64,000 nucleotides of DNA from Eledone cirrhosa (lineage: Eukaryota), in assembly GCA_964016885.1 (NCBI GenBank), contig OZ024740.1, positions 209,002,001-209,066,000 of the forward strand. Direction: 5' to 3'. Shown here piece by piece: positions 464 to 58,428 of this stretch (positions are counted from its first letter, which is position 1; the number at the start of each line of letters is the position of its first letter). The notes beneath the pieces are model-generated. The model saw nothing but the letters and a program-made list of their open reading frames with translations. It was not told the origin of the DNA and ran no database searches. The position numbers and the translations under genes are program-made.

Positions 464-858
464 CTTGATAACATCTGTCTTCTCCATTTGGTAGCTGGTT
501 TGGTCCATGGCTGGTTTACAATATGGGGATTGCAGCTTGGGGTTGGTTTAGCGGGGGTTATCAGTACAGTATTTTCTGAGTATTTTGATTACTGGTTAAG
601 GTGATCAATGGTTTTATTTATATACATACATACAAACATACATACATATACACACACAAACACATATATATATTCACACATATATTGTGTGTGTGTGCGT
701 TTGACTACAAAGATATATTCCACTGTACATTGAGAAATCTTCTGAATTAATCTGAAGTCACCTTTCTTGGTCACAAAACCCCGACAATATTCCTTGCTAA
801 AACAGTGTGATCCTATATGCCAGGGGATCACCTTATATGCCAACAAAATACGGTAAAA

Positions 859-1047
859 TTGTTTCTACTTTTGGCACAAGGCCAGCAATTACCTAGTGTA
901 TTACTGGTACTTTATTTTATCGACCCCGTAAGGATGAAAGGCAAAGATAACCTCGGCGGGATTTGAACTCAGAATGGCAAGGGCCGTAACTCTATGTGTC
1001 AAAGCATGGCGTCCGACCCTCTACCGATACTGCCAATCCACCGCCCT
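859..1047 (-). mobile_element. tRNA-derived SINE (octopus SINE family, probable Meta-domain core)
   Basis: Pol III B-box GTTCAAATCC and core GCCTTTCATCCTTACGGGGTCGATAAAATAAAGTACCAG. Near-identical copies elsewhere in the window. Confidence 0.85.
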
Positions 1048-1140: not shown

Positions 1141-21493
<20,353 letters not shown>

Positions 21494-23229
21494 ATAAATA
21501 AATAAATATATATATATACTGACGTAAACAGACCTCGTTGTTAGCAGCAGTGATATGTTGATAGAGAAATTATTCAATTCCAGCAATGCTCAAATGAATA
21601 GTATCGTATCAGTAATAACTGATCGTTGGACAACAATAAAAAGCAGCATTAACAACGAAATAATGAGAAGTGCTATAACGAAAGTCATATGTATGAATAA
21701 TCCCATTCACATTTGTGTTCACTCCACTCCCACCCCCTCTCTCCTTTACACAGTATTATATACCGAAATACCTTAAATATATATAGAATAATAATAACCT
21801 TCTAAAATATTCTTCTGAAAACTGGTACCAAAATATATATTAAAACTGTGTTTGATGGAGATATAAAAATCTGTGTTGTGTTTCAAAAGATCTCAGTTTA
21901 GTTCTGGTGGTTAATAGTGGCCTATGTCACATCTTATTTTAACCACGTTAGTTTTTACATAACAATTTTTTGGGGGTGGGGGCATGCCATTTTATTTTTA
22001 AATCTTTCAATAACGAAAGAAATTCTAATCATTTTTACTTATGGATTTATTATCTTATTATTTCTTAAACTGAATAAAATATCAAAGAAAAAATAATATA
22101 TTAAGTAATATCTATTTGTTTTAAATGATAAAAAAATAATGGTTTTATAATAATAATTTTTTTTTTTTGTTTTTTTGTTTTTTTGTAAGGTTTCTCTAGC
22201 AATCTGTTGCTAGGTGAAGTGTGTTAATTGGACTCAGATCAGTCCCTGATCTTAGGCTCAATATATCGCGTAGGATTCTGGCAGTGTTAGTAAAGGTAGA
22301 AATTTCGGTACTGCCTATGATGTCGGGGATCCAAAAGCTTTTGATGAAAGGCGTAAGACGTTTAGCGACCGTGTCTAGCTCAATAATAATAATAATTGTT
22401 TCTACTATTGGCACAAGGCCAGCAAAACCCAGTACATTACTGGTACTGTATTTTATCGACCCCGTAACGATGAAAAGTATTAACTGACTTTTTAATTAAT
22501 CTACAATTCTCTCGTTGTTACTAATAATACAAATGTTACTGATTATCAACTTATGGCAATTGTTTTAAATGCTTCTTTTTCGATATTCATTTTTTAAAAT
22601 GTATTCTCCTAAAATCTTCATTTTTTTTTTTTTTCAAATAAAGATAGAGTCTAACTTGTTTCTTGTATTTCTTTTTTTTTTTTTTGTAATATATCATATG
22701 TACTTGTGTGCTTCCCTCTCTCACATCTATATCCCTTCCATACCATCCCACCACTGTGTCTCCTATATCACTCCCTTCCATACCATCCCTCCAATGTGTC
22801 TCTTCCGTCACACTCATAACCATCACTCCTCTTCTATTTTCATTCTCGATCACGTTTGTCTCAGAACAAGGTAACCTCTCTAGAGTTGGTGCCATTATAC
22901 GACGCACTCGGTACACTCATAAAAGGGGTTGACATTCAAACGGGGACACACATAGACACACATAGAGAGGGGAAGACTGGCTCCGGTCACGTCAAGGACA
23001 TGGTAACATCTGTAGTGCTGGTGCCATGATGAAATGCACCCAGTACACTCTGCGAAGTAATTGAAGCTAGAAAGAACCACCTCCACACGTAGACTCTTCA
23101 GTCACGTCAAGGACATTTACTGACGTCAGTAAACGTAAACAACGTAAAATGAATAATTTAACATCTTCAAATATAAAAAAAGTGTATAACGTATGTATAG
23201 ATGTATGTAAATATATATATATACATATA

Positions 23230-23473
23230 TTCAGGTTTGAGATTCACCACTGGATAGAGCTGGTCAATTCCATGTGGTCAATCGTAATGTAATAATATAG
23301 AGAGTACTCAACGTAAAGCAGTTCAACCGTCTTTGTTTTTGTAGTTGGTGGTGCTATTACGGAGTTAAATATTATAATGAAATGACAGGAGGCTGGATTG
23401 TGTAAATCCTTGAAAGGTTTGAAACCTTTCAAGGATTTACACAATCCAGCCTCCTGTCATTTCATTATAATAT
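23230..23473 (-). mobile_element. Short fold-back element, family C (relatives 41600-43270, 51940-52220)
   Basis: Perfect ~49-bp inverted arms 23369-23417 / 23425-23473, between (TA)n tracts. Confidence 0.7.
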
Positions 23474-23619
23474 ATATACATATATATATATACTTAAGGT
23501 AAATATTGATGCCATTCAATTCAAGCACTCAACGTGCTTATTCCACATAGGAGTGACGGAGTAAATATCGAATAAAGGAAAAGCGAAGTAGTTTCAGATG
23601 TTCAAGTCCTATAATAATA

Positions 23620-23800
23620 ATTGTTTCTACTTTAGGCACAAGGCCAGCAATTACCCAGTGCATTACTGGTACTTTATTTTATCGACCCCGTAAGGATGAA
23701 AGGCAAAGTGAACCTCGGCGGGATTTGAACTCAGATCGTAAAGGGACGTAACTATGCTGGAAAGCATGGCGTCCGACCCTCTACCGATACTGCCAATCCA
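23620..23800 (-). mobile_element. Young SINE copy
   Basis: As for 15251-15437. Confidence 0.85.
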
Positions 23801-24300
23801 CAATAATGCTGTGATATATATTTCAATGGCGACAGTGGCCACACTGTTCCGTGCGCCAGTGCCGCGACATCGTTAGACAGCTTGTTACATAATAAGGTTA
23901 TGTTTCCGAGGCAATCCAAATTGAATCGACATGGAAACGGATGAAGTGTGTGTTCTTGGGTTCTTCATCCGTTCCCTTGTGAGTACCAATTCACCCCCAC
24001 TGGTCTGCGCAGGCGCAGGTCCGAAGGAAGTTGACCATTAGCTACCGCAGAGTTCAACGAAATTCGCCTAGGCAGTTCCCCCTCTCAACCAAACAATGAC
24101 CTATTCAGGCCTGTAATATATAGCGTACTGCTAGCCACCCTCTCAGTGGCAGTCAGCCGAATAGATGTTTACAACTGATTTAGAGCACTCGACAGATTTC
24201 TGGAGTAAGTATTCAATGATATTAAATATCATTCCAGGGATAACTTGAACCGTTAAGGTATATTATCCTTGGTCATGTCAAATATTTATAAAACATTTTG

Positions 24301-33714: not shown

Positions 33715-33893
33715 CACCATATACATACATGCACACAAAATACGCGCGCGCGCACGAACGCACACGACAACGCAACCAGATAGGTTATTCTTGAAATGTA
33801 GAGCAAAATTTCAACAATAGTAGATTGTGTTAAGGAGTCCCTTAAAATGAAAATTTTGCTAGTAATATACAACCATGAGACTGTGTTTTTGCA

Positions 33894-33962
<69 letters not shown>

Positions 33963-33963
<1 letters not shown>

Positions 33964-36312
33964 TCCATTATGATAGAAACAAATCTGGCAAGGATAATAA
34001 CACCAACAAATTTGACTCCTTCGGCTTTAAAACATTTAGAAGCCCCCCTCATAACACACTATTAAACCTCTTCGAAAACGACCTAATTAAACTAGTTAAA
34101 AACATTAAATACAAAAAACACCATAATAAAAACAACACCTTCTTAAACAAACTTAGCACCTCTATTAATGACTTCAAAACTAGTAGTAAAATTGTTGTAC
34201 ATGCCGACAAAACTAATAACATATACAGCCTAGATTATAATACGTATAGAAAGCTTATATATAATGAACTACATAAAAGCTACAAAAAAACCACTATGAA
34301 AAACTTAGAAGATATTAATATGGAAGGCTATAATATAGTATCCAAACTAGGGCTCCAGAGACATACACAACCTTACACCTCAAACCCCCCTAGATTCTCT
34401 CTGAAGGACCATAAGGTAGACTTCATTAGCAACCCCTCGATTAGACTAATCTGCCCCTCCAGGTCTGACATTGGCATTATCAGTAAAAAAATCCTAGACA
34501 AAATCATCCCACAGATTAAACACAAGATTTACCTTAAGCAATGGGGAAATACGGGTGAAGTGATTGAATGGTTCAAAAATATCATAGATAACAAGGATAA
34601 AAAATTTATCCAATTTGATATCAACTCTTACTACACCTCTATTTCCCCTATCCTACTAAATAATGGCCATGGACAATAGTGACTTGACTAGACCCCAGAT
34701 TGATGTCATACTTGCGGCCCGTAAAACAATAATCACCTTTGAGGACCAATTATGGACCCGCAAGGATACGCAAAACAACTTCGACATTACTATGGGGTCT
34801 AGTGACTCGGCGCAGGTCACTGATTTGGTTGGCCTATACTTACTTAACCTAATCCACAGGGAACTTCCGTACCTCAGCGGTGGTTTGTATCGCGATGATG
34901 CACTTCTACTTATAGACTATAAAAAATTCAATATAGAAAGGACTAGAAAACTATTGCACAAAACATTCAAAAACTTTAACCTTAGTATTACCATGGACAA
35001 AAACACCAAAAACGTCAACTTCCTAGACGCCACACTCTACTTAGACTCAATGATATATGCACCTTTCCACAAACCTAATGAAAAACTCATCTACGTAGAT
35101 ACCAAGTCTAACCACCCTAAATCTATATTGAACTCTATCTCTAAGGGAGTATCTAATAGAATCTCTAATCTATCCTATGACATAAACACATTTAACAATA
35201 ACTCGCAGTATTATAATCAGGCATTAGCTAGATCAGGCCATAATACAGGGATAGAGTTCCTACCTACAAAAACACATAGCTACAACATCATTTCACACAA
35301 CATGTCCATGGGAAAATTTAATAATAAGAATAGCAACTGCACACACACTAATAGGGATTGTAACAACAAGAGTAACCCGCACCACAGAAATGACCATAGG
35401 AACATTAAAGGAAACAAATCACCAGACATAAAAAACAGTAATAGAAGAAGAAATAATACATTTTTCAACCCTCCTTTCAATTTAAACGTCTCTACCAACC
35501 TTCCTAGGGCTTTCTTCTCACTACTAGATAAACACTTCCCATCCGGCCACAGGTACCACGGCCTTTTAAACAAAAACACTATTAAGATCTCATACTCTAC
35601 TACGCCTAACTTAGCATACCACATAGCTAGTACAAATAAAAGAAAAATTAATTCTTACTTCCAACAAACTAAATCACAACGGCCGATAAACCTTCAAAAT
35701 AACATTCAAAATGACAGTCAAAGTAACATTATAACAAATAACCGTAATATCAATGGAAATAGTAGTAATAGCACTAGTGTAAACATTAACGCTGCGTACC
35801 ACAACCCGCATAACCATAACCCTATAGCTAACCTCCAAACTTCTACACAGCATAGTAACCGGCAGACTAGCACCCAGAGTAATTGTAACTGTAGATCAAG
35901 TAGAACCTGCCCTTTAGATAAAAAATGCTTAACCAAGGATATCATATACTCATGTACAGTCACAACTAACAGCTCTTCTGAAACCTACATAGGCTCCACT
36001 TCTAACTGCTTCAAAACTAGATACAATTCGCACCTCCACTCTTTCAAAAAACACAGTCTAGCCAACTCCACTTCACTATCTAGCTACATACACTATCTAA
36101 AAACTAAAAATAAAATATATACACTTAAATGGGAAGTGGTAGGTAGTGCAACATCGTACAAACCACCCGATAAATTTTGTAACCTCTGTCTACTAGAGAC
36201 CCATACTATCATCTTCTCTAAACATAATCTCCTTAATAAAAAATCAGAAGTGTTCGCAAATTGCCAACACCGCTTCCGACACTCGTTCCAAAACTTTAAA
36301 CCCTATATATAA
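33963..36312 (+). pseudogene. PLE RT/GIY-YIG polyprotein with one frameshift near 34665
   Basis: Open from 33963 (FGFKT..PP, ADKTNNIY), then FDINSYYTSI, TMGSSDS, GLYRDD, CNCR..CPL...C, IIY...YIG, CNLCLLE, LLNKKSE. Confidence 0.9.
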
Positions 36313-37899: not shown

Positions 37900-39336
37900 A
37901 ACTTAAACTGAACTTTGATTACTGTAATCTCTCTCTCTATATATATATATATAAAATAAAGTTAAATAAAAGTCAAATGATTAATATTTAGCTTCGTTTA
38001 TTACTGCTATATATATTTCAGTGACAGCCATCTTTGGTTGTGACCTCTTCAGGCAGTTTGAATTAGTATGGTATAGACAAGTACATATGTTGTTTAGGTG
38101 TATGATATTGTCAATACTCTGATATGCCCAGTTCCTTGTTGGGTTGTTAATTCACTGGGTAACTGGAGTCATATGAATTCAAACAAACGAATTTTCGTGT
38201 CACAGGTCCCCTTCTCCTCTCATTGGTCAGTTATTAGAACATTCCTCATTCTAAGTGTTGTTATTGTTGGAGTTAGCTTAAAAATTGATAAAATGGTAGA
38301 AGGGACAAGGTGTTAAAGGAACAAAATAACAAAAAAAGTGTCAAACTTCCCATTGTTCAGTTCTGAGAGCATTCCTCAGTCAGAAGTCTATAGAATTCTT
38401 TCTGGGGTGAGGCTCCCTGTAGTGTTTTTGCCTGCTATTGTTCAGTACATTTGACCTCCACCATTATTTTGGTACTGTTGTTGTTGTAGTGGTCAGCTTA
38501 TATCTTGCTGCTGCTAACAATTTAGAAGTATCCAGTTTGTGTTTTCTCTTCATCCCTCCCGCCACCATCGTAGTGGTGGTGGTGGTGGGGGGGGGGGGGT
38601 TCTTTCATGTATATGAAGAAATATAAGGCAATAAATGAAGAAAACAGAAAATAAATAAATAATATAATAAAATAAAATAATTAATATAATTTGTGTAATT
38701 TGAAAATAAATAAATAAATAGAGAATAAAGAATAAAACAAATAAAGAGAAATCAAGATTTAAGATTGGAACTTGAAAGTCAGAAATCTGGTAAATTAAAA
38801 GTGTTTGTGTTATAGATGTTGGCCAAATTATTATGGCTGTGTCCGATTCTATCTCTAGGCTATCATGGTGTCTGCTCCGCCTGGGTTGTTCCCTATGGCT
38901 TGAGGGGAGTTCACAACCTAGGGTGTTGTTATTGTCCATATAGCTTGAGGGAGGTCTGGCCGAGAGGTGTTATCATGTTCTGTAGAAGTCCCTATAGCTT
39001 GAGGGGAGTTCACATCTTCTTGTGTTGCTACTGTCCATATATTTTGAGGAAGGTTCCGGCTCTAAGGTGTCTGCATGTCCCGACTATAACACAAACACTT
39101 TTAATTTACCAGATTTCTGACTTTCAAGTTCCAATCTTAAATCTTGATTTCTCTTTATTTGTTTTCTGCCCTCTTCACTGTATAACCTTATATTTATTTT
39201 AAGTTGAGACAGATTATAACACAAACACATTGAATATCTCATCTTAACATCTTGTATCATACCAATCTATCCAACATATTCTGACCTTCAGATTGGTTAT
39301 AGCACACACACACACACTTTATCCTACATTATTTCT

Positions 39337-39518
39337 GGATTGGCAGTATCGGTAGAGGGTCGGACGCCATGCTTTCCAGCATAGTTACGTCCCTTTACGA
39401 TCTGAGTTCAAATCCCGCCGAGGTTCACTTTGCCTTTCATCCTTACGGGGTCGATAAAATAAAGTACCAGTAATGCACTGGGTAATTGCTGGCCTTGTGC
39501 CTAAAGTAGAAACAATTA
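39337..39518 (+). mobile_element. Young SINE nested in the family F element
   Basis: Matches the reverse complement of 23620-23800. Confidence 0.85.
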
Positions 39519-40259
39519 TTTCTCACTTCTCCATATACATTATCATTACTTTTTCACCAATCTCTCATTTACTCTTTATTCTTTATTCTCTATTTATTTA
39601 TTTATTTTCAAATTACACAAATTATATTAATTATTTTATTTTATTATATTATTTATTTATTTTCTGTTTTCTTCATTTATTGCCTTATATTTCTTCATAT
39701 ACATGAAAGAACCTCCCCCCCCCCCCCCCCACCACCACCACCACTACGATGGTGGCGGGAGGGATGAAGAGAAAACACAAACTGGATACTTCTAAATTGT
39801 TAGCAGCAGCAAGATATAAGCTGACCACTACAACAACAACAGTACCAAAATAATGGTGGAGGTCAAATGTACTGAACAATAGCAGGCAAAAACACTACAG
39901 GGAGCCTCACCCCAGAAAGAATTCTATAGACTTCTGACTGAGGAATGCTCTCAGAACTGAACAATGGGAAGTTTGACACTTTTTTTGTTATTTTGTTCCT
40001 TTAACACCTTGTCCCTTCTACCATTTTATCAATTTTTAAGCTAACTCCAACAATAACAACACTTAGAATGAGGAATGTTCTAATAACTGACCAATGAGAG
40101 GAGAAGGGGACCTGTGACACGAAAATTCGTTTGTTTGAATTCATATGACTCCAGTTACCCAGTGAATTAACAACCCAACAAGGAACTGGGCATATCAGAG
40201 TATTGACAATATCATACACCTAAACAACATATGTACTTGTCTATACCATACTAATTCAA

Positions 40260-40314
40260 ACTGCCTGAAGAGGTCACAGCCAAAGATGGCTGTCACTGAA
40301 ATATATATAGCAGT
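40260..40314 (+). ncRNA. Type I hammerhead (family F; mirror copy 38003-38057 on -)
   Basis: ACTGC-CTGAAGA-GGTCACAGCCA-AAGA-TGGCTGTCACT-GAAA-TATATA-TA-GCAGT. Confidence 0.85.
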
Positions 40315-40460
40315 ACTAAACGAAGCTAAATTTTAATCATTTGACTTTTATTTAACTTTATTTTACACTACTCCGGAGTAACCAAACCAACCTGCGCACT
40401 TCGTCGAGTGCTCCAGCCTGCATACTGAGGTGTTGGTATACAACCAACATAAACTCTAAA

Positions 40461-40502
<42 letters not shown>

Positions 40503-41349
40503 AGAAGGTAGTACAGCATAATCGAAGCTCTGGTTGCGGGCAAGCAGTCGGGAAGTGCAGCCAAAAGCACTCAATAAGGAATTTTACCTTAGAGTTATAA
40601 CATTACGTTTAGACAGCTATGCAAATTAAAGACAGCGACCGAAATGCGAGCCGCTAGGACCAGAACAACGAAAAAAACCGACTCAGGGAAATCTTTGACA
40701 ATTATATCTTGGACCATCGTGGATATATTACATAATATTATATAACATCTCCACTAGGTTTCTGTAAATCCGAAATCATCAAAATCCAATTGCCGGGGCC
40801 TGCAAGTTAATTGGTCTTTGGAAGATAGAACAGTAGAATTTACTTCGTCAACAAGTTTTCGTTCTGCCGCCGCCGGTTGTAAGAACTAGTAGTAAACACT
40901 GCCAGTAGTCACGTGGATTATCCGAAGGGAGGTAGCCCCCGGTTTTGGCGGTCAAATTCAAAATTTGAACAGAGTATTTATATCCTTATATTCCTGATGA
41001 TTTCTCCCGAATGAGACAGTTTTAGTCCTGTAGAAGCCATTTCTATATTAAATATTTATACTCTGTTATGTATTGAGTACCTTACTTACTGTGGTTACCC
41101 CCGATTGAACCCGGGATAAACTTAATATATATATAGGAAAATGTTCAAGACACTGACGGCAGAGCTCAAGCCGTTTCGACCCACTCTACTACCCAAAGTA
41201 TTGAGTACTCTGGTGCATTATGGTCCACCTGGTTCCTTACCACACTTCCTTCGTTATATATATATATAAGGAAAAGTAAATAACGACAAGGAGTACAGTT
41301 ACGAAAGGTGTTAGGTATTAAGTTCACGCTTGAGAGTGCGGAGTGGGGG

Positions 41350-41382
41350 ACGACGTTTCGGGCATAAGCCCTTCATCAGGAG
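41350..41382 (-). ncRNA. Minimal PLE-type hammerhead motif (relative at ~52333-52368)
   Basis: Reverse complement CTGATGA-A-GGGC-TTAT-GCCC-GAAACGTC, with weak stem I. Confidence 0.6.
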
Positions 41383-41601
41383 AATGGTGGGAAAGAGAGG
41401 AGTTCCGAGAGGGTGTGAGGGGAGAGTGGTAAAAAAAACATTAAAATGAAGGGAAAAAAAATAAAAATAAAAATAACATGAGTGGGACAATAAGTTGAAA
41501 ACAAGTGGTGAAAGGGTGTGAGGAGTGTGGAGGTAGTGGTATATTGAGTACCTTACTTACTCTGGTTATACCCCCGATATATACATACATATATATATAT
41601 A

Positions 41602-43275
41602 TATTATAACATAACAGGAGGCTGGACGGGTGTAATTCCTTAAAAGGTTTATTATACTATGATCATTTCAATGACCGGGTTCAGTATGAATCCGTTGATA
41701 TCATCAGGTATTCGAAATATAACAAAGGAATATAATAGACAAAATCCATGGGGCTGAAAATCAGAGACATGAGGGCGACCGAACAGTTAGCAGCTTCTAC
41801 CCCGGTCGGCCGCCCTCGGTTTTATTTATGCATTTATTTACTCGCTTTACTCTCATTATATACTTATCCTTGTACTCATTAGCACACGACCCTAGAATAT
41901 TACTCTCTGTACCCCTATATCTGTTTATCTTTATTCACTCCCCCTACCCACCCAGGAATCATACTACATATAACCCGGACTAACTGGAGACTAAATATAG
42001 TCTATTTGCACATTTCATCAGATTTTACCACTTTCAACTTTTACATCACGGGTGTGAATAACTAATAATTGTTTGGTACACGCGATGATCCGACGGATGT
42101 GGCGGCTTTCCTGACTGTACGCCAGGCGCTCGGGTCGATCAGCCTTCCTTGAGTGCTTGGAAAAATAAATTCCCCCTTCTTTCGGTAAACGAAAATACGC
42201 CGAACGGCTGCTTTGCCCTGGGGCCCTGTCGGACTTGGAACCCACCGCGACACCGGTTATTGACCGCCAAACAGTACCTTTAAATTCTAGGCTTAATCAT
42301 AAATTTTAACTTTATCTTGCCTCCTTCTTCTAACACTTAACTAAATCCCCAACCAGTGTGAATAACTAATAATCGTTTGGTATATATGATGGCCGGCGGA
42401 CGGTGGCGGACTTCCCGCTAACACACCCGACGCTTAAGACAGTTAACATTCCTGGAATGCGCGGAAAAATAAATTTCCATTTGTTTCGCTAGACTCGGAA
42501 CGGCTGACCCGCCGTTGGGCCCCGGGCTGGCCGGGGGGTACGCACCGTCGCTGGTTATTGACCGCTAAGCATGGGCTTAATCTTTTCCCTATATTCTACC
42601 CTGAAACTTTATCGTGACTATCTATAATAAACTTAAACTTTTTCATAAAAGCCTCCTTCTGTAAATTCTTTAACTAAATCTCACAACCTCAAACCTAAAC
42701 CTTATTTTTCTAATTTCATCTTAAATGGCATATTCTAACTCTAAACATAAATTTAACGTTTCTAATTGTTAATCGTATTTTCTGTCCATACATTATACCA
42801 TGCAGACGCCCACTATATATTACTATATATAGATTTGTTAAAGATATGTTTGATATTTTTCGCGGCACTTTCTAGCGCGCATGTAAGCTTGATTATGACC
42901 TGACCTCAACGCTGGCTTCTGCCTTTGACGGGGTGGTAGAAGTAGTACACTATAAGCCTACGTCCTTTCACCAGATGGACATAAGTAGGCTTAATAATCA
43001 CCACTTGTGGGCGGCCGACTAGGGTAGAAACTGCTAAATGTTCGGTCGCCCTCATGTCTCTGATTTTCAGCCCCATGGATAAACCTTTTAAGGAATTACA
43101 CCAGTCCAGCCTCCTGTTATGTTATAATAATTAACTCCGTAGTCGCACCACCAACTACACAAACGAAGACGGGTGAGTTGCATTACGTTGAGTGCTCTCC
43201 ATAATATTACATCGAGGTTAACCATACGAAATGACCAGTTCTATCCAGTGGTGAATCAACAAACCTAAATAAATA
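41602..43275 (+). mobile_element. Long non-coding family C element with inverted ends and an internal ~300-bp tandem unit
   Basis: 41602-41650 and 41745-41800 are inverted at 43020-43130, internal repeat at 42052 and 42356, flanked by (TA)n. Confidence 0.65.
41654..41711 (-). ncRNA. Type I hammerhead (family C)
   Basis: ATAC-CTGATGA-long stem II-GAAA-TGATCA-TA-GTAT, then AATAAA. Confidence 0.8.
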
Positions 43276-43815
43276 TATAGCGAGGATACTGGGTTGTATG
43301 AATGTAACAAGGAATACATGGTTTGGTGTATAATATTTAATTAACAATGGTAGATAGTATACTTGACATGTCAAAGATAGATGTTAGAATGAAACAAAGT
43401 TAGTAGTTACCGTTTTGATTGCCAGGCAAACGCGGCTGGCAGAGGACGCCTGGCTAAGGCCAGGCGCCTGTTGGCCAAATTAATGGCAGAGCCAAATGAG
43501 AGGCTCTTGACCTGGTGCCGAAAAGGCAAAGAGAGTTAGAAAGCTTAAAGTTGTTAGTTTTATAGGGCTCTGACCGGAAGTTGCAGAAAGGGTTCTACTT
43601 CCCGTCTAGATCCCAATCAAAACAAGGGAGACAACCGCTACAAATATATATATATTAGGATTGGTGCTCTGAAATAGGATTAACGTAAGAGAGTACCGAT
43701 AAATTCTAGTACTAATAACATTGAACATAATAGGAAGAAGTTATATAAACTTTTAAAAAATTTTAACCTTTCGATCACGATTGATAAGAACGATAGAGCA
43801 GTTAATTTTTTAGAT

Positions 43816-45177
43816 GTGACATTAGACTTAGTCACTAATAATTATAAACCCTTCCACAAGCCAAATGAGACACTCTCTTACGTTAATCCTAATTCCAACC
43901 ACCCTAAATCTATGATTAGTTCTATTATTAACGGTCTATCTAATAGAATCTCCACACTCTCTAAAGATATAAGAATTTTTAATTCACATGCTGAGTATTA
44001 TAATAATGCCCTAGCTAACTCTGGTTACTCTGGTAGACTACCTTATAAAGATGACAACCTTGAAACGACTCCGATTACCCATAATAACGTGATATCCCAC
44101 AATATGGCCGTAAATGGGGGTAGAAAACTTAGGAATCATAGAAATCTTATAGATATATCTAAACCGAACCCTATGTATAACAACCGCAATAGTAATTATA
44201 ATAGTGTGTCTAATGGCACACATTTTGAGCTTAGTTTTAATGAACAGGATATACGCTCTGAACGTTCACCCAGTGATAATGCTGTAGCGGCTTCTAATAG
44301 TGTTAATTCAATTGGTCCTCACTTAAACCCTGATCCTATAAATAAGATACATGTTAGAAATAGAAATAGTAAAGGTAAGAATAGGAGAAGGCTTAATACC
44401 TACTTTAACCCACCTTATAACCATGATGTACTAACTAATATCCCTAGGTCTTTCTTTTCTATTTTAGAGAAAAATTTCCCTCCTACTAATAAGTATCATA
44501 GTATCTTTAATAAGAATGTAATTAAACTCTCCTTCGCCACTACCCCTAACATTAGTTCTCATCTAGCTAGCACTAATAATAAGAAAATTAGGGACAGCTA
44601 CTGCTCTTTACTTACCACTAATCTAGATAGTCCTATTAATAACTTACCACCCGAGCAGACCTTGTTGTCTAATAACCCTAAGAGTAATACTTCGCGTCAT
44701 CAGCTAATCACTAGTACCCGGAAGTGTAATTGTAGATTAAGTAATAGCTGCCCTTTAAATGGTAACTGCCTCTCTAGGAATATTGTTTATGCATGTGATG
44801 TTAAGACTAATTATTCTTGTAAAACATATATAGGCTCCACATCTAATACTTTTAAAACTAGGTTTAATTCGCAGGCCTCTAATTTTAAGCATATCAAATT
44901 TAAAAACTCTACTTCTTTGGCACACCATATTTGGAATTTAAAAGGGAATAATATACCGTACAGTCTGCATTGGCGTATTGTAGCCCACTCTAATCACCTT
45001 TCCACCCACGCTAAATTCTGTAATCTTTGTATTCTAGAGACCCATTCTATAATTTTCTCTGGGAACGTATTGCTTAATAGAAAATCGGAAATATTTTCTT
45101 CCCGTCCGCATGCTATCTCTAATTCCTTCTTCTATTATAAACCTAAAAGCTCAGGTAGTTTAAACTGTATCCATTAG
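43816..45177 (+). pseudogene. Truncated PLE ORF (RT thumb + GIY-YIG endonuclease)
   Basis: Frame open from ~43700, lacks the YRDD motif. Confidence 0.85.
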
Positions 45178-45331
45178 CTGCTTTCATTCCTTATCACTTT
45201 AGTTTTAGCTCATTATTATTATTATTATTAGTTTTCTACGGTTTATTGATTTTAGTATTTCTAGTTTTCTTAGCTGTTTTAGCCCATTTATCATCTTAAC
45301 CATTATTACATTTTTACTTATCCTTGTCGAC

Positions 45332-45362
<31 letters not shown>

Positions 45363-46707
45363 TTTCTATCTTTATTTTCATCCCTGGTTGGAGTGTATCT
45401 TATTGAATCGTTTAATTTTAGTCTCCTTCATCTTAGGCTAATGAACCTCATCCTTTCTACACTTAATCTTCGCCTTATTGAATATATATATATTATAATT
45501 TTATGTCCCTTCTTGCCCTCCGTAGTTTTACTTCTTTCTGTTCCCCTTTGTCTACCATAGTTTTAATTGGAGTTTTTACTTTGGATAACGTTAGTCGTCA
45601 TGACGGATTTTAATATATCGTCGATAAAAGTATTAGCCCATTTATTGAAATATCTTGATCTATATCTACATTGATGACTTAACTTTTATTCCATATGAAG
45701 TGACCCGTAATGTTTATTCAACTATTATAAGATTAATTAAATTAATAAGGGTTTCAATTCAATTTTTTTTTGGTTTAGATTAGTAGTATCTTCTAGTTTC
45801 ACCTAACGGTTTGATGCGCCTACGTGATTTTGTGTCTGTGTTTATTTTTGTATTTGTTTTCATTTTACTTTGCTACCACATGCTGTCTGTCTTTCCTATC
45901 ATCTGTCACTCGTGACCTTGATCTCACTGTGTAAATATGTCTTAAGCTTTTTCCCTTGATATTGTGTGTCTGCTATTGAAATATTAATATTTATATATTA
46001 TATTGTATTATATGTAATTGAATTATAAGTATGTGTCCGGTATTGAGATACTGATATGTAATATTATATGGATTTGAACTGCCTATATCTCCGTATATTT
46101 ATTGTCTATTATATATGTTTATTTATTTATTTTTTTTTTTTCACCATACTTTTAAATATTATATGGTATTATTATTTTTTTACCCTGTGAAATACATTAT
46201 GCTTCTATATACAATTTGTTGACTGTAAATGATACATAGGATGTATTTTTATATATTTTTTTTAATGTCAATATATTATTTTCATTGGTTTTGGTATTTT
46301 TTAATCACACCGTCAGGGTGATTATTCTAATATTTATATTTGTGTTATTATGTGTATGTGTAAATGTGTATATATATGTGTCAGAGTGAGTGTGGGTATA
46401 TATATATGTATATTAAGTTTTATTTATGTATTATCTATTGTATTGTATTGTATATTGTATTATAATTCTCACATTGTATTACTATGTTGTGTTTCAAGTA
46501 TTAGACTTGTATTGTACTTTTAACGTGGGTTTGTTTAATGTTTAATGTCTTGCTTGCTCTATTGCCCTATAGCCTTTATTTACAAATGCACCATATTAGG
46601 TTTAGCATGTCTTTCCATGATAATTCTCCCAAATTTTCATAAATATCCACTCCATGTTCTTCTGAGTTTTGGCCTGTTCTGGCCGTTAATACCTCTTGTC
46701 TTTTTCC

Positions 46708-46752
46708 TTGCTCTGATGAGTCCTGGTTAATGGGACGAAACACTGTCAGCAA
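46708..46752 (+). ncRNA. Minimal type I hammerhead in the PLE 3' end
   Basis: TTGCT-CTGATGA-GTCCT-GGTTAAT-GGGAC-GAAA-CACTG-TC-AGCAA, then AATAAA. Confidence 0.88.
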
Positions 46753-47331
46753 ATAAAGATTGTTGATGTATTGAAGGCTTCTTTGTTTATTTTATATAAT
46801 TTTTCGGCTCTGTTGGAAAACATTGAGCTATACTCTATACTGTCTTTTCTCTAATACGACGAGTGTGTTTAACTCCAATGCACTCAAGTATTCTAATCTT
46901 ATATATATATATATGAAAAGAGTCAGGAGCCCCGGCAGCTGAGCTTCGGCCGTTTCGACATCTAGATCCGAACTAAACAACCAGTATTAGAACGGCAGGA
47001 ATCTAGCTGAACTTATCAAAGGGTACAGTCCATATATGGGCATGCAGTCAAAGCAAAAACAAGCAAAAAAATCCGCAACGCCGGTGAACGAACGCCTCTC
47101 ATCACGAACAAATCGGTTAACGAACAACAGTTGGTGTCAAGCTGGGAATATCGGCGGGAAAGCGCACACGCGCGCGTGTGTGTGTGTCCGTGTCTGTCTG
47201 TGTGTACAGGATATCCGTAAAAGACCAAGGAAACAATTCAATTTATTGCAAGAGAGTTTGTTTAGTATAATTAAAATTCTATACACTTGAGGTTGCGCAT
47301 ACAAGTGTATAACATTTTAATTACACACATA

Positions 47332-49985: not shown

Positions 49986-50047
49986 GCTATGGCAGAAGTA
50001 TTGTATTGCGTGGTGGAATGTAATATAGTGACAGTAATATTTATTAA

Positions 50048-50820
50048 TTGTTTCTACTTTTGGCACAAGGCCAGCAAATACCCAGTACATTGCTGGTACT
50101 TTATTTTATCGAGCCCGTAAGGATGGAAGGCAAAGTTAACCTCGGCGGGATTTGAACTCAGGCCGTAAAGGGACGTAACTATGCCGGAAAGCATGGCGTC
50201 CGACTCTCTACCGATACTGCCAATAGTAGTATACAAAGTGTATTGTATTAAGTGTGGAAAGAGAAAAAGAAAGAAAAGATATAACGGAAGTATATGAATC
50301 AAATTAAGGTGGTTGAAATGTGGTTGAAAATCAGTCGAATTTGTTGAATATTTCCACTTAGCAGTTGAGTTTTGAGATGGAAGCATCCTCTAAAAATCTC
50401 GCTCTTTGAGTTCAAGTAAATATTGCTGATGACAAACCTTGTAATATCCTATAATTGTATTTTTTTAAAAACAAAAATGCAAACGAAAGCCATAGAACTT
50501 TACGGTTATCGGCCTTTGATATGGACTTTGGCAATTTCGACCCCTACTAACAGTACTGCTGGTCCATCCTGGGTCACCGCGTCTGACACAAGCCAAACTC
50601 TGTCCAGGAGAGTAAGAGCCGAGAGACAAAACATTTGGATTGGAAGTATCGTTAGAGAGTCAGACGCCATGCTTTGCAGCATATAATTACGGCCCTTTAC
50701 GGTCTGAGTTAAAATCCCGACGAGGTTAACTTTGCCTTTCGTCCATACGGTGTCAATAAAATAAAGCACCAGTAATACACTGGGATAATTGCTGGTCTTG
50801 TGCCAAAAGTAGAAACAATT
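50048..50820. mobile_element. Two SINE copies in inverted orientation (50048-50224 on -, 50636-50820 on +)
   Basis: Same family as 859-1047. Confidence 0.8.
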
Positions 50821-51859: not shown

Positions 51860-51942
<83 letters not shown>

Positions 51943-51988
51943 GAAATGACAGGAGGCTGGATTTGTGTAAATCCTTAAAAGGTTTATT

Positions 51989-52046
51989 ATACTATGATCA
52001 TTTCAATGACCGGGTTCCGTATGAATCCGGTGATATCATCAGGTAT
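51989..52046 (-). ncRNA. Type I hammerhead (family C)
   Basis: ATAC-CTGATGA-TATCACCGGATTC-ATACG-GAACCCGGTCATT-GAAA-TGATCA-TA-GTAT. Confidence 0.82.
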
Positions 52047-52468
52047 TCGAAATATAATAAGTGAATGTAATAGATAAAATCCATGGGACTGAAAATCAAA
52101 GACCCGAGGGCGACCGCCATCCAGCATCTTCTACGTTGAGTACTCTCTATATTATTACATTGCGATTGACCACACGGAATTGACCAGGTCTATCCAGTGG
52201 TGAACCTCAAACCTGAATATATATATATATATATATATATATAATGAAAAATTGAACGGGAATAAAACAGAGAGGCAGTACAAACAAATGTTTATTAATT
52301 TCACGCTCTTGAGAGTGAGGTGGTGGTGGGGAACGACGTTTCGGGCATAAGCCCTTCTTCAGGTGAAAAGTGTGTGGGAAGAGAGTTCAAAGGGTGTGTA
52401 GGGGAGTGGTGGAGAGACATAGAAAAAAGGGGGTGAGAGGAAACGGTGCAAATATATATATATATACG

Positions 52469-53771: not shown

Positions 53772-54060
53772 CAGTCATGGGCAACCAGCGGCCCGCGAAG
53801 CTTTCTGAATGGCTCGCCTAAGTCACGTAAGTGAAATCTTTCTGATTTTTTTACCCCAACTTTTCAGTCGTAATTTATCTTTCTATCATTTTTAAGATCA
53901 AGGAAAACAATGTGTACGAATTCTGAAAAACAAATCAAAACAACCTGAGTTATCACCCTTTTTTTAATGTGGGCACGAATGTAAATTAGCGGCTGCGGCC
54001 CGCCTGATGATGAGCCATATCTCGTGCGACCCGCTTCTCGAAAAAGGTTGCTCATGTCTG
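53772..54060. mobile_element. hAT-type MITE
   Basis: TIRs CAGTCATGGGCAAC / GTTGCTCATGTCTG, 8-bp TSD GTTTAGAG. Confidence 0.88.
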
Positions 54061-54168
54061 GTTTAGAGCACTCAGTCTGTAGGACGAGTTGTGTATAATC
54101 AGTGTGTCGCTATTGTAACTGATTATGTATATATATAATCAGTTTTCTGAGGATTTAATCAGAGGTAA

Positions 54169-54473
54169 TGTGGGTATGGTGTGGCGTGCGGTGGCCGGGG
54201 GCGGGGGAGTGCTCGACCGGAAGGGTGTGTGGCGTGCGGTGGCCGGAGGCGGGGGAGTGCTCGACCGGAAGGGCTTTTTGGCCGGAAGGATGCTCGACCG
54301 GAAGGGCCAGCAGAGGGCCTCTCTCTAGTGGTGACCAGCACACGGTGTGGACGCGAGTTTTGGGGCAGCTCCCGGTGTTAAGCAGTTGGACGCACGTGGA
54401 AGAGGAGTAACCTGCAGTGGACTTTAGCGGTGCCTGTGAAAAGCGGTAAGTGAGATAGCTTTTTCTAACTACA
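54169..54473 (+). repeat. 5' LTR
   Basis: Two substitutions seen relative to the 3' LTR, internal ~47-bp G-rich tandem. Confidence 0.95.
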
Positions 54474-54538
54474 AGCTATTTCGGCGACTGAAAAAAAAAA
54501 AACAAAAAAAAAACACTTGCCGCAAGACAAATCAGAAG

Positions 54539-55282
54539 ATGGCGACAAGACTACGGATGAACGAAGCTATCAGGGCATTCACCGGGGAAGGTGATGTCGT
54601 CGCTTGGCTGCGGAAGGTTCGGCTGGTCGCAAGTTTGCAGAAGATAGAGGACGTGGCCGGCCTCATGCCATTGTACCTCGAGGGCGACGCGCTGGTACTC
54701 TTCCTTGAGTTGGACGAGCACAGCCAAAGAGATGTGCAGAAGATTGAGAGGCGTCTGATGGATGCATTCGCCGAGGGACCGTTGGCGGCTTTTGCTAAGC
54801 TGGCGAGAATCAGGTGGAATGGTGAGCGCGTCGACATTTTCGCAGCAGAAATAAGGCGGTTGGCTACGTTGGCCGGTTACCAGGCGGAATGCGAACGCAC
54901 GGTGCGGTTGGCGTTCATCAATGGATTTCCGGACGACATAGCGGTGAAACTGCAGCAAGTCCCGGGTTATAAAGAGATGGAAATGCGTTCACTGGTGGAA
55001 CAAGCCCGGATCATAGCGGAAGATGCCAAAAAGAGTGTTGCGGCGATAGCAACTACGGCAGCGAAATGGTGAAAGGGAGGCAACCTCGGCACGCGGCGTC
55101 CGCGTGCGTTTAAGGGGCGCTGTTTTCGGTGCCAGGGCCCGCATATGGCTAGAGACTGTAGAGAGTCGAAGCCGGAGATAATTTGCTACCGGTGTAAGCG
55201 ACCAGGCCACATCGCTACTAACTGCGACCAGGGAAACGATCCAAGGGGAACTACTGCGCCGGTAGTTGCCCCTTACGAGTAG
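54539..55282 (+). pseudogene. gag: gag with an in-frame premature TGA (55070-55072) and two zinc knuckles
   Basis: The same frame continues past the TGA to CFRCQGPHMARDC and CYRCKRPGHIATNC, ending at TAG 55280-55282. Confidence 0.85.
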
Positions 55283-55288
55283 CGGCGC
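55231..55288 (+). promoter_or_regulatory. Predicted -1 programmed ribosomal frameshift signal (slippery site + pseudoknot)
   Basis: G-GGA-AAC in the gag frame, stem 55243-55254 / 55262-55274, loop GCGCCG complementary to CGGCGC at 55283-55288, pol in the -1 frame. Confidence 0.8.
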
Positions 55289-58110
55289 TGCCTGTGGTGG
55301 AAGTCTTCGTGAGGGGGAAGCCACAGCGAGCCCTCGTGGATGCGGGCTGTACGACGACACTGGTGACCGCGGGGGTGGCGCAGAGGTGGGGAGGGAAGAG
55401 CAGCGTAAGGGCAGTCGACGGCAGGAAAATTGAATGCCGAGGTCGCAGCGAGATGGAAATAGCGGTACGGGGAAGGAGGATTAGGCTCTCCGCCATCGTG
55501 GTAGACAGTGTGGTGGATGGGATCGGCGTGGTTATGGGCATGGACGCGATTGGCCGTCTAGGGGGCGTCACGGTGAACAATGTCGGTGTGTCGTTTGGCG
55601 CCGCTGCATCGGTATGCGCTGTGAGCGCACGTCATGAGAACCAGAAGGCTCACGAGGAGGAATACCCCGCTTACACTGTACAGGACAAAGACTTCAAGGC
55701 CGTGTTTGATGGGCAGCGATGGGTTGTTGAGTGGTACTGGAAGGGAGAACCACCAACACTGAAGACCAAAGTGGGCTGCTATCAACACACATTGAAGGGA
55801 AACGCTAGGAGCGAGTTCGAGCGAGAAGTAGAGAGATGGATCGAAGAGGGCATACTGCTTCCCTGGAAGGAGGAGGTGAAGTGCGGAGTATTGCCGTTGA
55901 TCGCGGTGGTGCAACCCACGAAGAGCAAGGTGAGGCCGGTACTGGACTATCGGGAGCTGAACGAGCACGTGTCATGCCACACGGGTGGCGAGGTCACGGA
56001 TGTCTGTGGGGAAACCCTGCGTGAGTGGAGACGCATGACGGGGGGTTCAGCGATCGTGGATCTAAAGTCGGCTTACTTGCAGTTGCATATAGATGAGAAG
56101 CTCTGGCGGTATCAGCTGGTCAGGTATAAGGGCCGGACATATTGCCTGACCAGGCTCGGTTTCGGGCTGAGCTCCGCACCGAAGATCATGGCGGCGGTCC
56201 TCAAGACCGCTCTGGGGAGGGCCGACAAGATAAAGAGGGCTACTAACTCCTATATTGACGACATCCTAGTGGACGAGTCGGTGGTGTCGACGGCGGAGGT
56301 CACGAGCCATTTGCGGAGGTATGGACTGACTGCGAAGCCATCAGAAGCATTGGAGGGAGGAGCCGCGCTGGGACTTAGGCTACGGCGAGACAAGACGGGC
56401 GTTTTGGTGTTCCAGAGGGGAAACGAAGTTCCGGAACTGGGCCCAAGTATGAATAGGCGGGAGCTTTTCTCGGTGTGTGGAAAGCTGGTGGGTCACTACC
56501 CGATCGCTGGGTGGCTCCGGACGGCATGCAGCTATGTCAAGAGACGAGCGGGAGGGGTGACTTGGAGTGACAGAGTGGGAGAGAGGACGGTGGCCATGAT
56601 GCAGGAGATCGTGGCGAGGGTGAAGGCCGACGACCCAGTGCGGGGACGCTGGTACGTTCCCAAATCACAGAGCGGGACCGTATGGTGCGATGCCAGCAGC
56701 ATAGCGCTGGGTGTCACGTTGGAGATAGGAGGTGTTGAGGTCGAGGATGCAGCCTGGCTTAGAAAGAAGGACGACTGCAGCCACATCAATGTGGCCGAGC
56801 TGGACGCGGTGTTGAGAGGGGTGAACCTCGCCCTGCGGTGGGGGCTGCGCACCATCGAGATACGCACCGACTCGGCTACTGTACTCGGATGGGTAAGATC
56901 AGTGCTCACCAGTGAGAAGAGAGTGCGAACGAGAGGCGCGGCGGAGATGCTGATAAAGCGCCGCCTGGGAACGTTAGGAGAGCTGGCCACCGAGTTCGAC
57001 CTGAAGCTGAGCGTAGTGTTCGTGCCCTCAGAGAAAAATAGGGCGGACATCTTAACTAGAGTGAAGAAAGCCTGGATGGAAGCGCCGGAGGAGGTAGAGG
57101 AAGAGATAGCTGCCGTGTGTCGGCTGACCGAGTTAGACCTGAAGGGGTTGCATGACATGCACCACATGGGGGGGGGGGGGATAGGAGCCTGTTCCTAGCC
57201 AGGAGAATCGACTCGGACGTTAGCAGACACAGTGTTCGGGGGGTGGTTAGAGGCTGCGTCCGATGTCAGTCCATTGATCCCGCCCCGGGTGTACACGAAA
57301 CGGGAAGCCTCCCGGTGGATCGCGACTGGAAGCGATTAGCGGTGGATGTGACGCACTACCGGCAGGGAACGTACCTCTCGATGGTCGACTGCGGACCAGG
57401 TCGAATGGCGATATGGAGGGAGATGAAGACTGGAACGGCCGAGGAAATCGTGCGGACGTTGAGAGAGGTGTTCTTGGAGCGGGGCCCTGTGGACGAACTG
57501 CTGATGGACAACAGCGCAGCGTTCCACTCGGAGGCACTGAGGGAGATGCTCGATGGATGGAAGGTGGACCGTTTCTTCAGAGCGGCGCACAGGCCGAGCG
57601 GGAATGGAATCGTGGAGCGACACCACCGGACGATCAAGGCAATGGCGGAGCGGGGCCATATCTCACCAATGGAGGCAGTGTTCTGGTACAATATGTCCTC
57701 TCGGGTTGGACAGGTCGAGGAATCGGTGCCACACAGAGCAGTATTCAAATACGAGTGGCGGCACCCGTGCACGCCACCACAGCGGCCAGTGGGGAGAGAG
57801 TGCATTCGTGCAGGTGGGCGAAGAAGTCTGGGTTAAGCCCCCAGATGCACGTTGCACATCTCAATGGGGAAGGGGAACGGTGACGGCCGTAAATTCAAAG
57901 AACAATGTGTCCGTGGACGGGGTACCACGTCCTGTCCTGGATGTAAGAAGAATCACCGTGTCGACGGACTCCGAGGAAGAGGAAACCCAAGATGAGGTGG
58001 AAACCCAGAGCCCTGTCCCAATGCTACGAAGATCGCAACGGAGTCGTAGACCACCGACCTGGACAGCAGACTTTCATATGCAGAGGGACGAGGGGGAAAT
58101 TGATCCTTGA
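55237..58110 (+). pseudogene. pol: pol (protease, RT, RNase H, integrase) with two frameshifts
   Basis: LVDAG, VLDYRELN, DLKSAY, YIDD, CDAS/AELDA/TDS/RAD, HH-CC and DDE motifs. Shifts at the G-run 57168-57180 and near 57790. Confidence 0.9.
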
Positions 58111-58123
58111 GATCAGGGGGGCG

Positions 58124-58428
58124 TGTGGGTATGGTGTGGCGTGCGGTGGCCGGGGGCGGGGGAGTGCTCGACCGGAAGGGTGTGTGGCGTGCGGTGGCCG
58201 GAGGCGGGGGAGTGCTCGACCGGAAGGGCTTTTTGGCCGGAAGGATGCTCGACCGGAAGGGCCAGCAGAGGGCCTCTCTCTAGTGGTGACCAGCACACGG
58301 TGTGGACGCGAGTTTTTGGGCAGCTCCCGGTGTTAAGCAGTTGGACGCACGTGGAAGAGGAGTAACCTGCAGTGGACTTTAGCGGCGCCTGTGAAAAGCG
58401 GTAAGTGAGATAGCTTTTTCTAACTACA
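58124..58428 (+). repeat. 3' LTR
   Basis: Direct repeat of 54169-54473. Confidence 0.95.

What the first reader, a model, noticed from the sequence alone, without database searches (positions are those of the whole stretch)
42052..42600. Tandem ~300-bp unit with compensatory pairing: candidate unknown structured RNA in a non-coding element
Seen: two diverged GC-rich copies (from 42052 and 42356) in AT-rich DNA keep islands GTGTGAATAACTAATAAT, GTGGCGG, GGAAAAATAAATT, GAACGGCTG and GGTTATTGACCGC. Long-range helices are kept despite sequence change: TCCGACGG/CTGTCGGA (42089/42226) vs GGCCGGC/GCTGGCC (42391/42526), and TGTTTGG/CCAAACA vs GTTTGGT/GCTAAGC. Both keep a GGTT-ATT-GACC hairpin. No shared ORF is evident. 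Inference: a ~200-nt RNA domain of unknown function (ribozyme, IRES-like or packaging element) carried by the family C element.
Basis: partly seen in the sequence, partly recalled or inferred. Interest (0 to 1): 0.75.

Follow-up and report, generated by a model that had tools for sequence, protein, structure and literature searches.

The report
Y-capped RNA domain in giant retrozyme
The two copies are a conserved ~225-base domain carried twice by a 2-3 kb protein-less Penelope-type jumping element, and its RNA is predicted to fold into a long stem topped by a Y-shaped junction that likely binds a protein the parasite needs to get copied.

Summary
Two ~225-nt copies (42051-42276, 42355-42574; period 304, 71% alike) lie in a dispersed 1.8-2.7 kb ORF-less element with Penelope-type anatomy: a hammerhead-like terminal repeat, (TA)n targets, truncated, inverted and tandem copies. 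The domain's 24-nt signature has 1,587 exact genome matches (control 0) and spans 13 subfamilies that are 49-100% alike (mean 68%). All keep a 50-nt cap predicted to be a three-way junction: 2 of 29 cap substitutions hit its 24 core stem bases, both G-C/G-U compatible. The arms fold as a long rod and co-evolve (own-arm residual -7.0 vs neutral -2.2 ± 1.2 kcal/mol). Pair-by-pair covariation is not above shuffles, and strand tests are mixed. No Rfam family, no ORF, no autonomous partner found, and expression untested. Most likely a protein-binding cis-domain of a non-autonomous element; a ribozyme or IRES role is unlikely. The window's copies are decayed.

The parts
42051..42276 (+). Domain copy 1 (subfamily F31), predicted rod with three-way-junction cap
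42151..42200 (+). Cap of copy 1: junction helix 42151-42155/42196-42200, hairpin 1 42159-42174, hairpin 2 42180-42194; two private stem mutations (42172, 42199)
42355..42574 (+). Domain copy 2 (subfamily F43)
42455..42496 (+). Cap of copy 2; hairpin 1 intact (42463-42478), hairpin 2 broken by an 8-nt deletion
42089..42233 (+).
41818..43279 (+). 5'-truncated sense copy of the ORF-less Penelope-type element (full unit about 2.1 kb); ends in AAACCTAAATAAATA then (TA)n; a ~92-nt deletion at 43080/43081 removed its hammerhead-like motif
41602..41818 (-). Inverted partial copy of the terminal repeat, the usual Penelope-type 5' inversion
   Evidence: PMC8557442 passages
41648..41713 (-). Type I hammerhead-like motif (CTGATGA, long stem II, GAAA, palindromic stem III) followed by AATAAA

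Best explanation
The two copies are a conserved domain of an ORF-less Penelope-type retroelement, predicted to fold as RNA into a long rod capped by a three-way junction that likely binds a protein and so helps the non-coding RNA get copied by another element's reverse transcriptase. Shown: the element's anatomy, its lack of coding frames, the lineage of subfamilies, the near-invariant cap and the co-evolving arms. Inferred: (1) the + strand is transcribed through tandem or partial-tandem copies; (2) the terminal repeat (hammerhead-like motif plus tail) is where an unidentified autonomous Penelope-like protein starts reverse transcription, as shown for the anole element; (3) the RNA encodes no protein and so gets no cis-preference; the rod would present the cap to a host or element protein that brings the RNA to that enzyme, much as the two Alu monomers use SRP9/14 (analogy recalled, not tested); (4) two caps work better than one. 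I put the structure being real and selected at about 0.75 and this particular job at about 0.45.
For: Element: 39 other near-full-length matches at 87-92% among 40 scored candidates; head-to-tail tandem of period 2,077 and truncated+full copies; two alternative 3' ends on (TA)n. Hammerhead-like pattern in 191 of 300 terminal-repeat hits; similar hammerhead architecture in an RT+GIY-YIG-type element of the same genome. Longest stop-free frames 95-136 codons in 4 whole elements, best tblastn E 2.5. Cap: 1,587 exact matches vs 0 control; 40 of 40 sampled motif sites belong to this superfamily, 38 with the terminal repeat downstream; 2 of 29 cap substitutions fall in the 24 core stem bases, both G-C/G-U; hairpin 2 goes G-C > G-U > A-U in the F14 family; hairpin 1 has pair probability 0.68-0.94 in 13 of 13 consensuses folded separately, the junction helix >0.5 in 10 of 13. 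Arms: own-arm duplex -60.6 vs neutral -43.1 ± 2.6; diagonal residual -7.0 vs -2.2 ± 1.2, lowest of 60 simulations -5.2; 284 arm substitutions cost 0.28 kcal/mol vs 0.74-0.83 expected (p 3e-5 and 5e-4). Two or three caps in 165 of 202 elements; after the second cap was lost (L149) the first was duplicated (F14+F14 in 15 elements). The cap is not a feature of the coding Penelope-like 3' regions examined.
Against: No G-U over A-C bias: GU/AC 10/11, 10/8, 8/12, 7/15, 9/15 for five reference folds, with 13-25 other mismatches each. Double changes 4 vs 3.5 in column shuffles (48/100). For the 13-family apical alignment the minus strand scored better (z -2.9) than the plus (z -1.4) (all). The substitution test is also significant on the minus strand (p 0.002). 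Junction-helix probability is only 0.09 in F43, the family of window copy 2 (0.05 in F20, 0.26 in F16). A family's own 3' arm is among its best two partners in only 3 of 13. Invariant stems cannot covary. In the anole element the protein-binding region lies in the hammerhead-tail stretch (PMC11167929), so capture may not need this domain. Single-cap elements exist (37 of 202, mostly truncated). The neutral simulation has no indels or GC bias. No partner, binding or expression data.
Confidence: 0.45

Rival explanations
1. The domain is an RNA stability or export element that keeps the non-coding (possibly ribozyme-cut or circular) RNA from decay, like ENE triple helices in retrotransposon RNAs.
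For: Younger first-copy families (F13, F16, F20) have a U-rich internal loop (about 4 U opposite 4-6 U) at the base of the rod. ENEs raise retrotransposon RNA stability and mobility (PMC12501189 passages).
Against: The window's families (F31, F43) and the oldest ones lack the U-rich loop; the lower stem is weak in the abundant F14; the conserved part is the cap, not the loop; no Rfam ENE hit.
Confidence: 0.2
2. The domain acts as DNA: a CpG-rich internal promoter or enhancer whose palindromic half-sites bind transcription factors, repeated in tandem as dosage units.
For: GC/CpG-rich island in AT-rich DNA; GGAAA..TTTCC and TTTGGCGG resemble NFAT/Rel and E2F sites (recalled, not tested); invariant half-sites with variable spacers give the same pattern as stems and loops; strand tests are mixed.
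Against: Nested symmetry (a junction helix enclosing two hairpins plus ~80-nt arms) and arm co-evolution are not needed for factor binding; 4 stem changes are G-U-compatible on the + strand vs 1 A-C; + strand folds better than - in 10 of 13 families.
Confidence: 0.15
3. The rod is a neutral leftover of an old fold-back duplication, and the conserved cap is chance or low mutability.
For: These elements often make inversions and internal duplications (L106, L101); the most stable fold is in an old family (F36 z -5.7) and weaker ones in young families (F5 -0.7, F14 -1.3); no strict covariation.
Against: Arms stay far more stable than neutral decay from that same family; cap loops change while stems do not (27 vs 2 substitutions); parallel helix gain.
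Confidence: 0.1
4. The domain is a new ribozyme or an IRES.
For: About 200 nt, multi-helix, possible long-range pseudoknot, tandem copies.
Against: No Rfam match; no conserved ORF; conserved bases are helical rather than an unpaired catalytic core; element ends map to the terminal repeat, not to the domain; the pseudoknot is absent from younger families.
Confidence: 0.07

Closest known systems
Animal non-LTR retrozymes (non-autonomous Penelope-like derivatives with a type I hammerhead; PMC7229834; bioRxiv 10.64898/2026.07.22.740005)
   Same: No ORF, type I hammerhead-like motif, tandem and monomer copies, Penelope-type terminal repeat.
Penelope-like elements (pLTR, tail, inverted 5' copy; PMC8557442, PMC11167929, PMC4209133)
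   Same: Partial tandems, 5' inversion, two 3' ends, microsatellite/AT targets, hammerhead with palindromic stem III.
   Different: No RT or GIY-YIG frame; the two 3' ends are ~150 nt apart rather than 30-40; the domain is not a feature of the coding elements examined.
Alu dimer with SRP Alu domains (recalled)
   Same: Works-like analogy: non-autonomous element with two structured monomers and an AT-rich linker, single master lineage of subfamilies.
   Different: No 7SL/SRP similarity (Rfam), no Pol III boxes seen, different partner class.
ENE triple-helix elements of retrotransposons (PMC12501189)
   Same: U-rich internal loop between helices in the younger first-copy families.
   Different: Loop absent in the window's families; no Rfam ENE hit; the conserved part is the cap.

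Membership tests
Non-autonomous Penelope-like element / non-LTR retrozyme | No protein-coding frame | tested here: met
   longest stop-free frames 95-136 codons in 4 elements; tblastn best E 2.5
Non-autonomous Penelope-like element / non-LTR retrozyme | Partial-tandem or tandem copies with terminal repeat, 5' inversion and optional tail | tested here: met
Non-autonomous Penelope-like element / non-LTR retrozyme | Type I hammerhead core (CUGANGA, GAAA, NUH, stems I-III) in the repeat | tested here: met
   191 of 300 terminal-repeat hits; no Rfam hit for this motif
Non-autonomous Penelope-like element / non-LTR retrozyme | G10.1-C11.1 pair of Penelope hammerheads (PMC4209133) | tested here: not met
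   stem II opens with U.U then A-U, or G.U
Non-autonomous Penelope-like element / non-LTR retrozyme | Unit size under about 1 kb | tested here: not met
   1,848-2,743 nt; hence filed as a variant
Non-autonomous Penelope-like element / non-LTR retrozyme | Terminal repeat shared with an autonomous element | tested here: inconclusive
   none found among 224 upstream flanks, 14 distinct coding 3' ends or 40 hammerhead sites; only a similar hammerhead architecture
Non-autonomous Penelope-like element / non-LTR retrozyme | Self-cleavage and circular RNA | not testable with these tools
   needs bench assay or RNA reads
Rfam ribozymes, IRESs, RNase P/MRP, SRP, ENE (for the domain) | Match to the family model | tested here: not met
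   Searches (E up to 10; six sister-family loci, E up to 5): no hit on the domain
ENE | U-rich internal loop flanked by helices with adjacent G-C pairs | tested here: inconclusive
   present by eye in F13, F16, F20; absent in the window's F31/F43
IRES | Conserved downstream ORF | tested here: not met

The most novel reading that the evidence does not exclude
A lineage of giant retrozymes evolved its own bipartite RNA device, a pseudoknotted rod with a three-way-junction head, to hijack Penelope reverse transcriptase in trans: a functional counterpart of the Alu dimer for the telomerase-related retroelements, kept in two copies and re-duplicated after loss.
Probability: 0.3. Interest if true: 0.8.

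Novelty: new variant of a known kind. Interest (0 to 1): 0.55.

Why it matters
How non-coding parasites capture Penelope-type reverse transcriptase in trans is not addressed in the papers I read; the one in vitro study covers an autonomous element only. This lineage offers a defined 50-nt RNA motif absent from Rfam, over a thousand genomic copies and a step-by-step series of subfamilies in which stems stay and loops change. That makes the question directly testable by probing and pull-down. It also extends animal retrozymes from under 1 kb to 2-3 kb with internal domains.

Tried and rejected
Rfam: no hit in the window at gathering score; at E up to 10 in 40500-47200 only the neighbour's hammerhead at 46707 (E 0.011) and three chance hits outside the domain; six sister loci gave 89 hits, none on the domain, nearly all on simple repeats. 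Public collections: viral patterns gave 2, 0 and 0 stretches; the 2 are not the domain (best 6.8 bits, E 2.5, phage-like DNA). Metagenomes gave 0 and 1, prokaryote genomes 1; those two do not match the model. Sequencing runs: no RNA holder listed. The query began with a common SINE, which swamped; one search repeated the laying with window sequence. One search had two of three helices mis-registered by me; one search replaces it. Autonomous partner not found. Resemblances noticed by eye from memory and dropped: dicistrovirus IGR IRES, HCV IIIa loop, plant-virus PTE, RNase P P2/P4 topology, SECIS, telomerase CR4/5 (motifs not conserved across subfamilies, no Rfam support). A poly(A)-signal role for the AATAAA loop was dropped because the loop varies (AATTAA, AATTGA, AATCGA). 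Decayed coding sequence: not supported. Pfam gave nothing for the window's neighbouring ORFs; a related ORF gave a weak GIY-YIG hit (E 0.002, below cut-off). Earlier findings of this scan: three look-ups, nothing. Literature searches listed no paper describing this element or domain; Repbase and Dfam were not available, so it may exist there as an unclassified repeat. Supplements were not read.

Full report
Observation. The islands and helix strands are at the stated coordinates. The copies are 71% alike over 140 nt and span 42051-42276 and 42355-42574. Alone they fold no better than shuffles (z about -1.5); both carry private damage, including an 8-nt deletion in copy 2.

The carrier. A DNA search of the 3.0 Gb genome gave 39 other near-full-length matches at 87-92% among 40 scored of 1,622 candidates. 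The copies define an element whose + strand ends on (TA)n at either of two points about 150 nt apart. It occurs as head-to-tail tandems (period 2,077) and as truncated plus full copies, often with an inverted partial copy in front, as in the window (41602-41818). This is the anatomy described for Penelope-like elements (PMC8557442, passages). The terminal repeat holds a type I hammerhead-like motif followed by AATAAA in 191 of 300 distinct hits; a 20-nt piece of it has 5,811 exact genome matches (control 0). The motif has the palindromic stem III of Penelope hammerheads but lacks their G10.1-C11.1 pair (PMC4209133, passages). A coding element of the same genome has a similar architecture. Four whole elements (1,848-2,743 nt) have no frame over 136 codons and no similarity to neighbouring Penelope-type proteins. 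The ORF at 43684-45177, with its own hammerhead at 46707, is a separate insertion.

The domain is shared by a superfamily. The family-specific islands have 146 and 104 exact matches (controls 4 and 3), but GGAAAAATAAATTTCC has 1,120 (control 4) and the relaxed 24-nt cap pattern 1,587 (control 0). Of 40 further motif sites sampled from the listed first part of contig C1, 40 belong to these families and 38 have the terminal repeat downstream. From 360 units, 323 fell into 13 clusters of three or more; 37 were left out. Their consensuses average 68% identity (minimum 49%) and form one stepwise lineage with a side branch. Divergence from consensus falls from F33/F36 (9.4, 7.2%) through the window's F31/F43 (6.1, 6.2%) to F13/F14 (3.3, 3.9%); this is biased because many loci were picked as best matches. 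165 of 202 elements have two or three caps; the second cap was deleted in one full-length F13 element (L149) and the first is duplicated in F14; the order of events is inferred. A related organism's contigs cover all 30 bins of the element at 80% or more, with a depth peak over cap 1; a second organism covers 8 of 30, mostly the tail.

Structure: for. Twelve finer consensuses of the window's lineage (123 of 129 units) give a rod of 78 pairs, 93% of cells paired, with consensus energy z -3.6 against column shuffles (0/100). Thirteen family consensuses folded separately mostly give long rods; hairpin 1 has probability 0.68-0.94 in 13 of 13, the junction helix >0.5 in 10, hairpin 2 >0.5 in 8; + folds better than - in 10. 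Along 19 parent-child steps, 29 substitutions fall in the 50-nt cap and only 2 in its 24 core stem bases, both G-C/G-U. Own arms pair at -60.6 kcal/mol against -43.1 ± 2.6 under neutral decay, and the own-arm residual is -7.0 against -2.2 ± 1.2 in 60 simulations. 284 arm substitutions are less destabilising than same-type changes elsewhere (0.28 vs 0.83 and 0.74; p 3e-5, 5e-4). It crosses the GTGGCGG helix, which has a full A-U/G-C swap, so a pseudoknot is possible in the window's families.

Structure: against. With a fold taken from one consensus only, changes in the others show no G-U over A-C bias and many mismatches; double changes do not exceed shuffles (48/100); and the 13-family apical alignment scores better on the minus strand (all). 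The substitution test is also significant on the minus strand (p 0.002). The junction helix has low probability in F43, F20 and F16. The shuffle controls ignore relatedness. The arms therefore seem to keep pairing by re-registering rather than by fixed compensations, and the cap rests on conservation pattern, not covariation.

Mechanism. In the only in vitro study, the anole element's protein is proposed to bind within the first 172 nt of the ORF (the hammerhead-tail region) and starts copying at the tail (PMC11167929, parts 1-2 of 4 read). The terminal repeat here probably does that job; 38 of 40 sampled hammerhead sites are truncated before reaching a cap. The domain is not a feature of coding elements examined: of 14 distinct ORF 3' ends, 3 had a cap within 2.5 kb, at unrelated distances, and none was found in the two window elements. 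A domain confined to the non-coding lineage, kept in two copies and with a fixed head on a variable stalk, best fits a protein-binding device that makes up for the missing cis-preference (inference; Alu analogy recalled). Stability/export, DNA promoter, neutral fold-back and ribozyme/IRES are the rivals.

Comparison. Closest are animal non-LTR retrozymes, non-autonomous Penelope derivatives of 51-972 bp in a survey capped at period 1000 (bioRxiv 10.64898/2026.07.22.740005, parts 1-2 of 5 read) and ~350-390 bp in mussel (PMC7229834, passages). This lineage is larger and has an internal domain with no Rfam match. Seven literature searches listed no description of it; repeat databases were not available. 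ENE function in a retrotransposon is from PMC12501189 (passages).

Verdict. A real, selected, undescribed domain in a new variant of a known element class; function inferred. Interest 0.55.

Noticed in passing
window 43684-45177 and 46707-46753: 5'-truncated Penelope-type RT/GIY-YIG ORF with long T-rich 3' region and its own type I hammerhead followed by AATAAA (Rfam Hammerhead_1, 24.9 bits, below gathering score).
   Followed up: partly
window 33879-36312: A second Penelope-type ORF in two frames (266 and 550 aa), inserted after a (CT)n/(AT)n tract.
   Followed up: partly
window 54001-58300: GC-rich (54-59%) block of about 4 kb between direct repeats (54179-54305 and 58134-58260); LTR-element-like.
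   Followed up: no
window 37952-38599 and 39718-40365: 648-nt, 100% complementary inverted repeat with 1,118 nt between the arms.
   Followed up: no
window 854-1039, 11892-12917, 15246-15431, 23616-23801, 39336-39520, 50043-50228: Abundant SINE-like family; the ARAGORN tRNA-Asn call at 12029-12116 lies in one copy and is probably not a gene.
   Followed up: no
window 41341-41400 (-): Another hammerhead-like core (CTGATGA..GAAA) in a different repeat, seen by eye.
   Followed up: no
window 40940-40970: A TTTTGGCGGTCAA motif matches the domain's 3' end on the opposite strand within an unrelated repeat; resembles an E2F-type site (recalled).
   Followed up: no
window 23192-23492, 51862-52243: Short terminal-repeat-only fragments of the same superfamily.
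   Followed up: partly
L149:3500-5800 and F14 loci (L135-L141): Second cap deleted in a full-length F13 element; F14 elements carry two or three copies of the first-type cap about 505 nt apart.
   Followed up: partly
F13, F16, F20 loci (e.g. L132:1431-1600, L126:1431-1600): U-rich internal loop at the base of the rod, ENE-like by eye, arising after loss of a 17-nt segment.
   Followed up: partly
L101:1605-2088: Inverted pair of units intermediate between copy 1 and copy 2 types; may reflect the pre-duplication ancestor.
   Followed up: no
L136, L146, L248: Coding Penelope-type family whose hammerhead has the same long stem II and palindromic stem III but a different sequence and no domain.
   Followed up: partly
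L143:6494-10000: Satellite array of 90-nt period, about 98% identical units.
   Followed up: no
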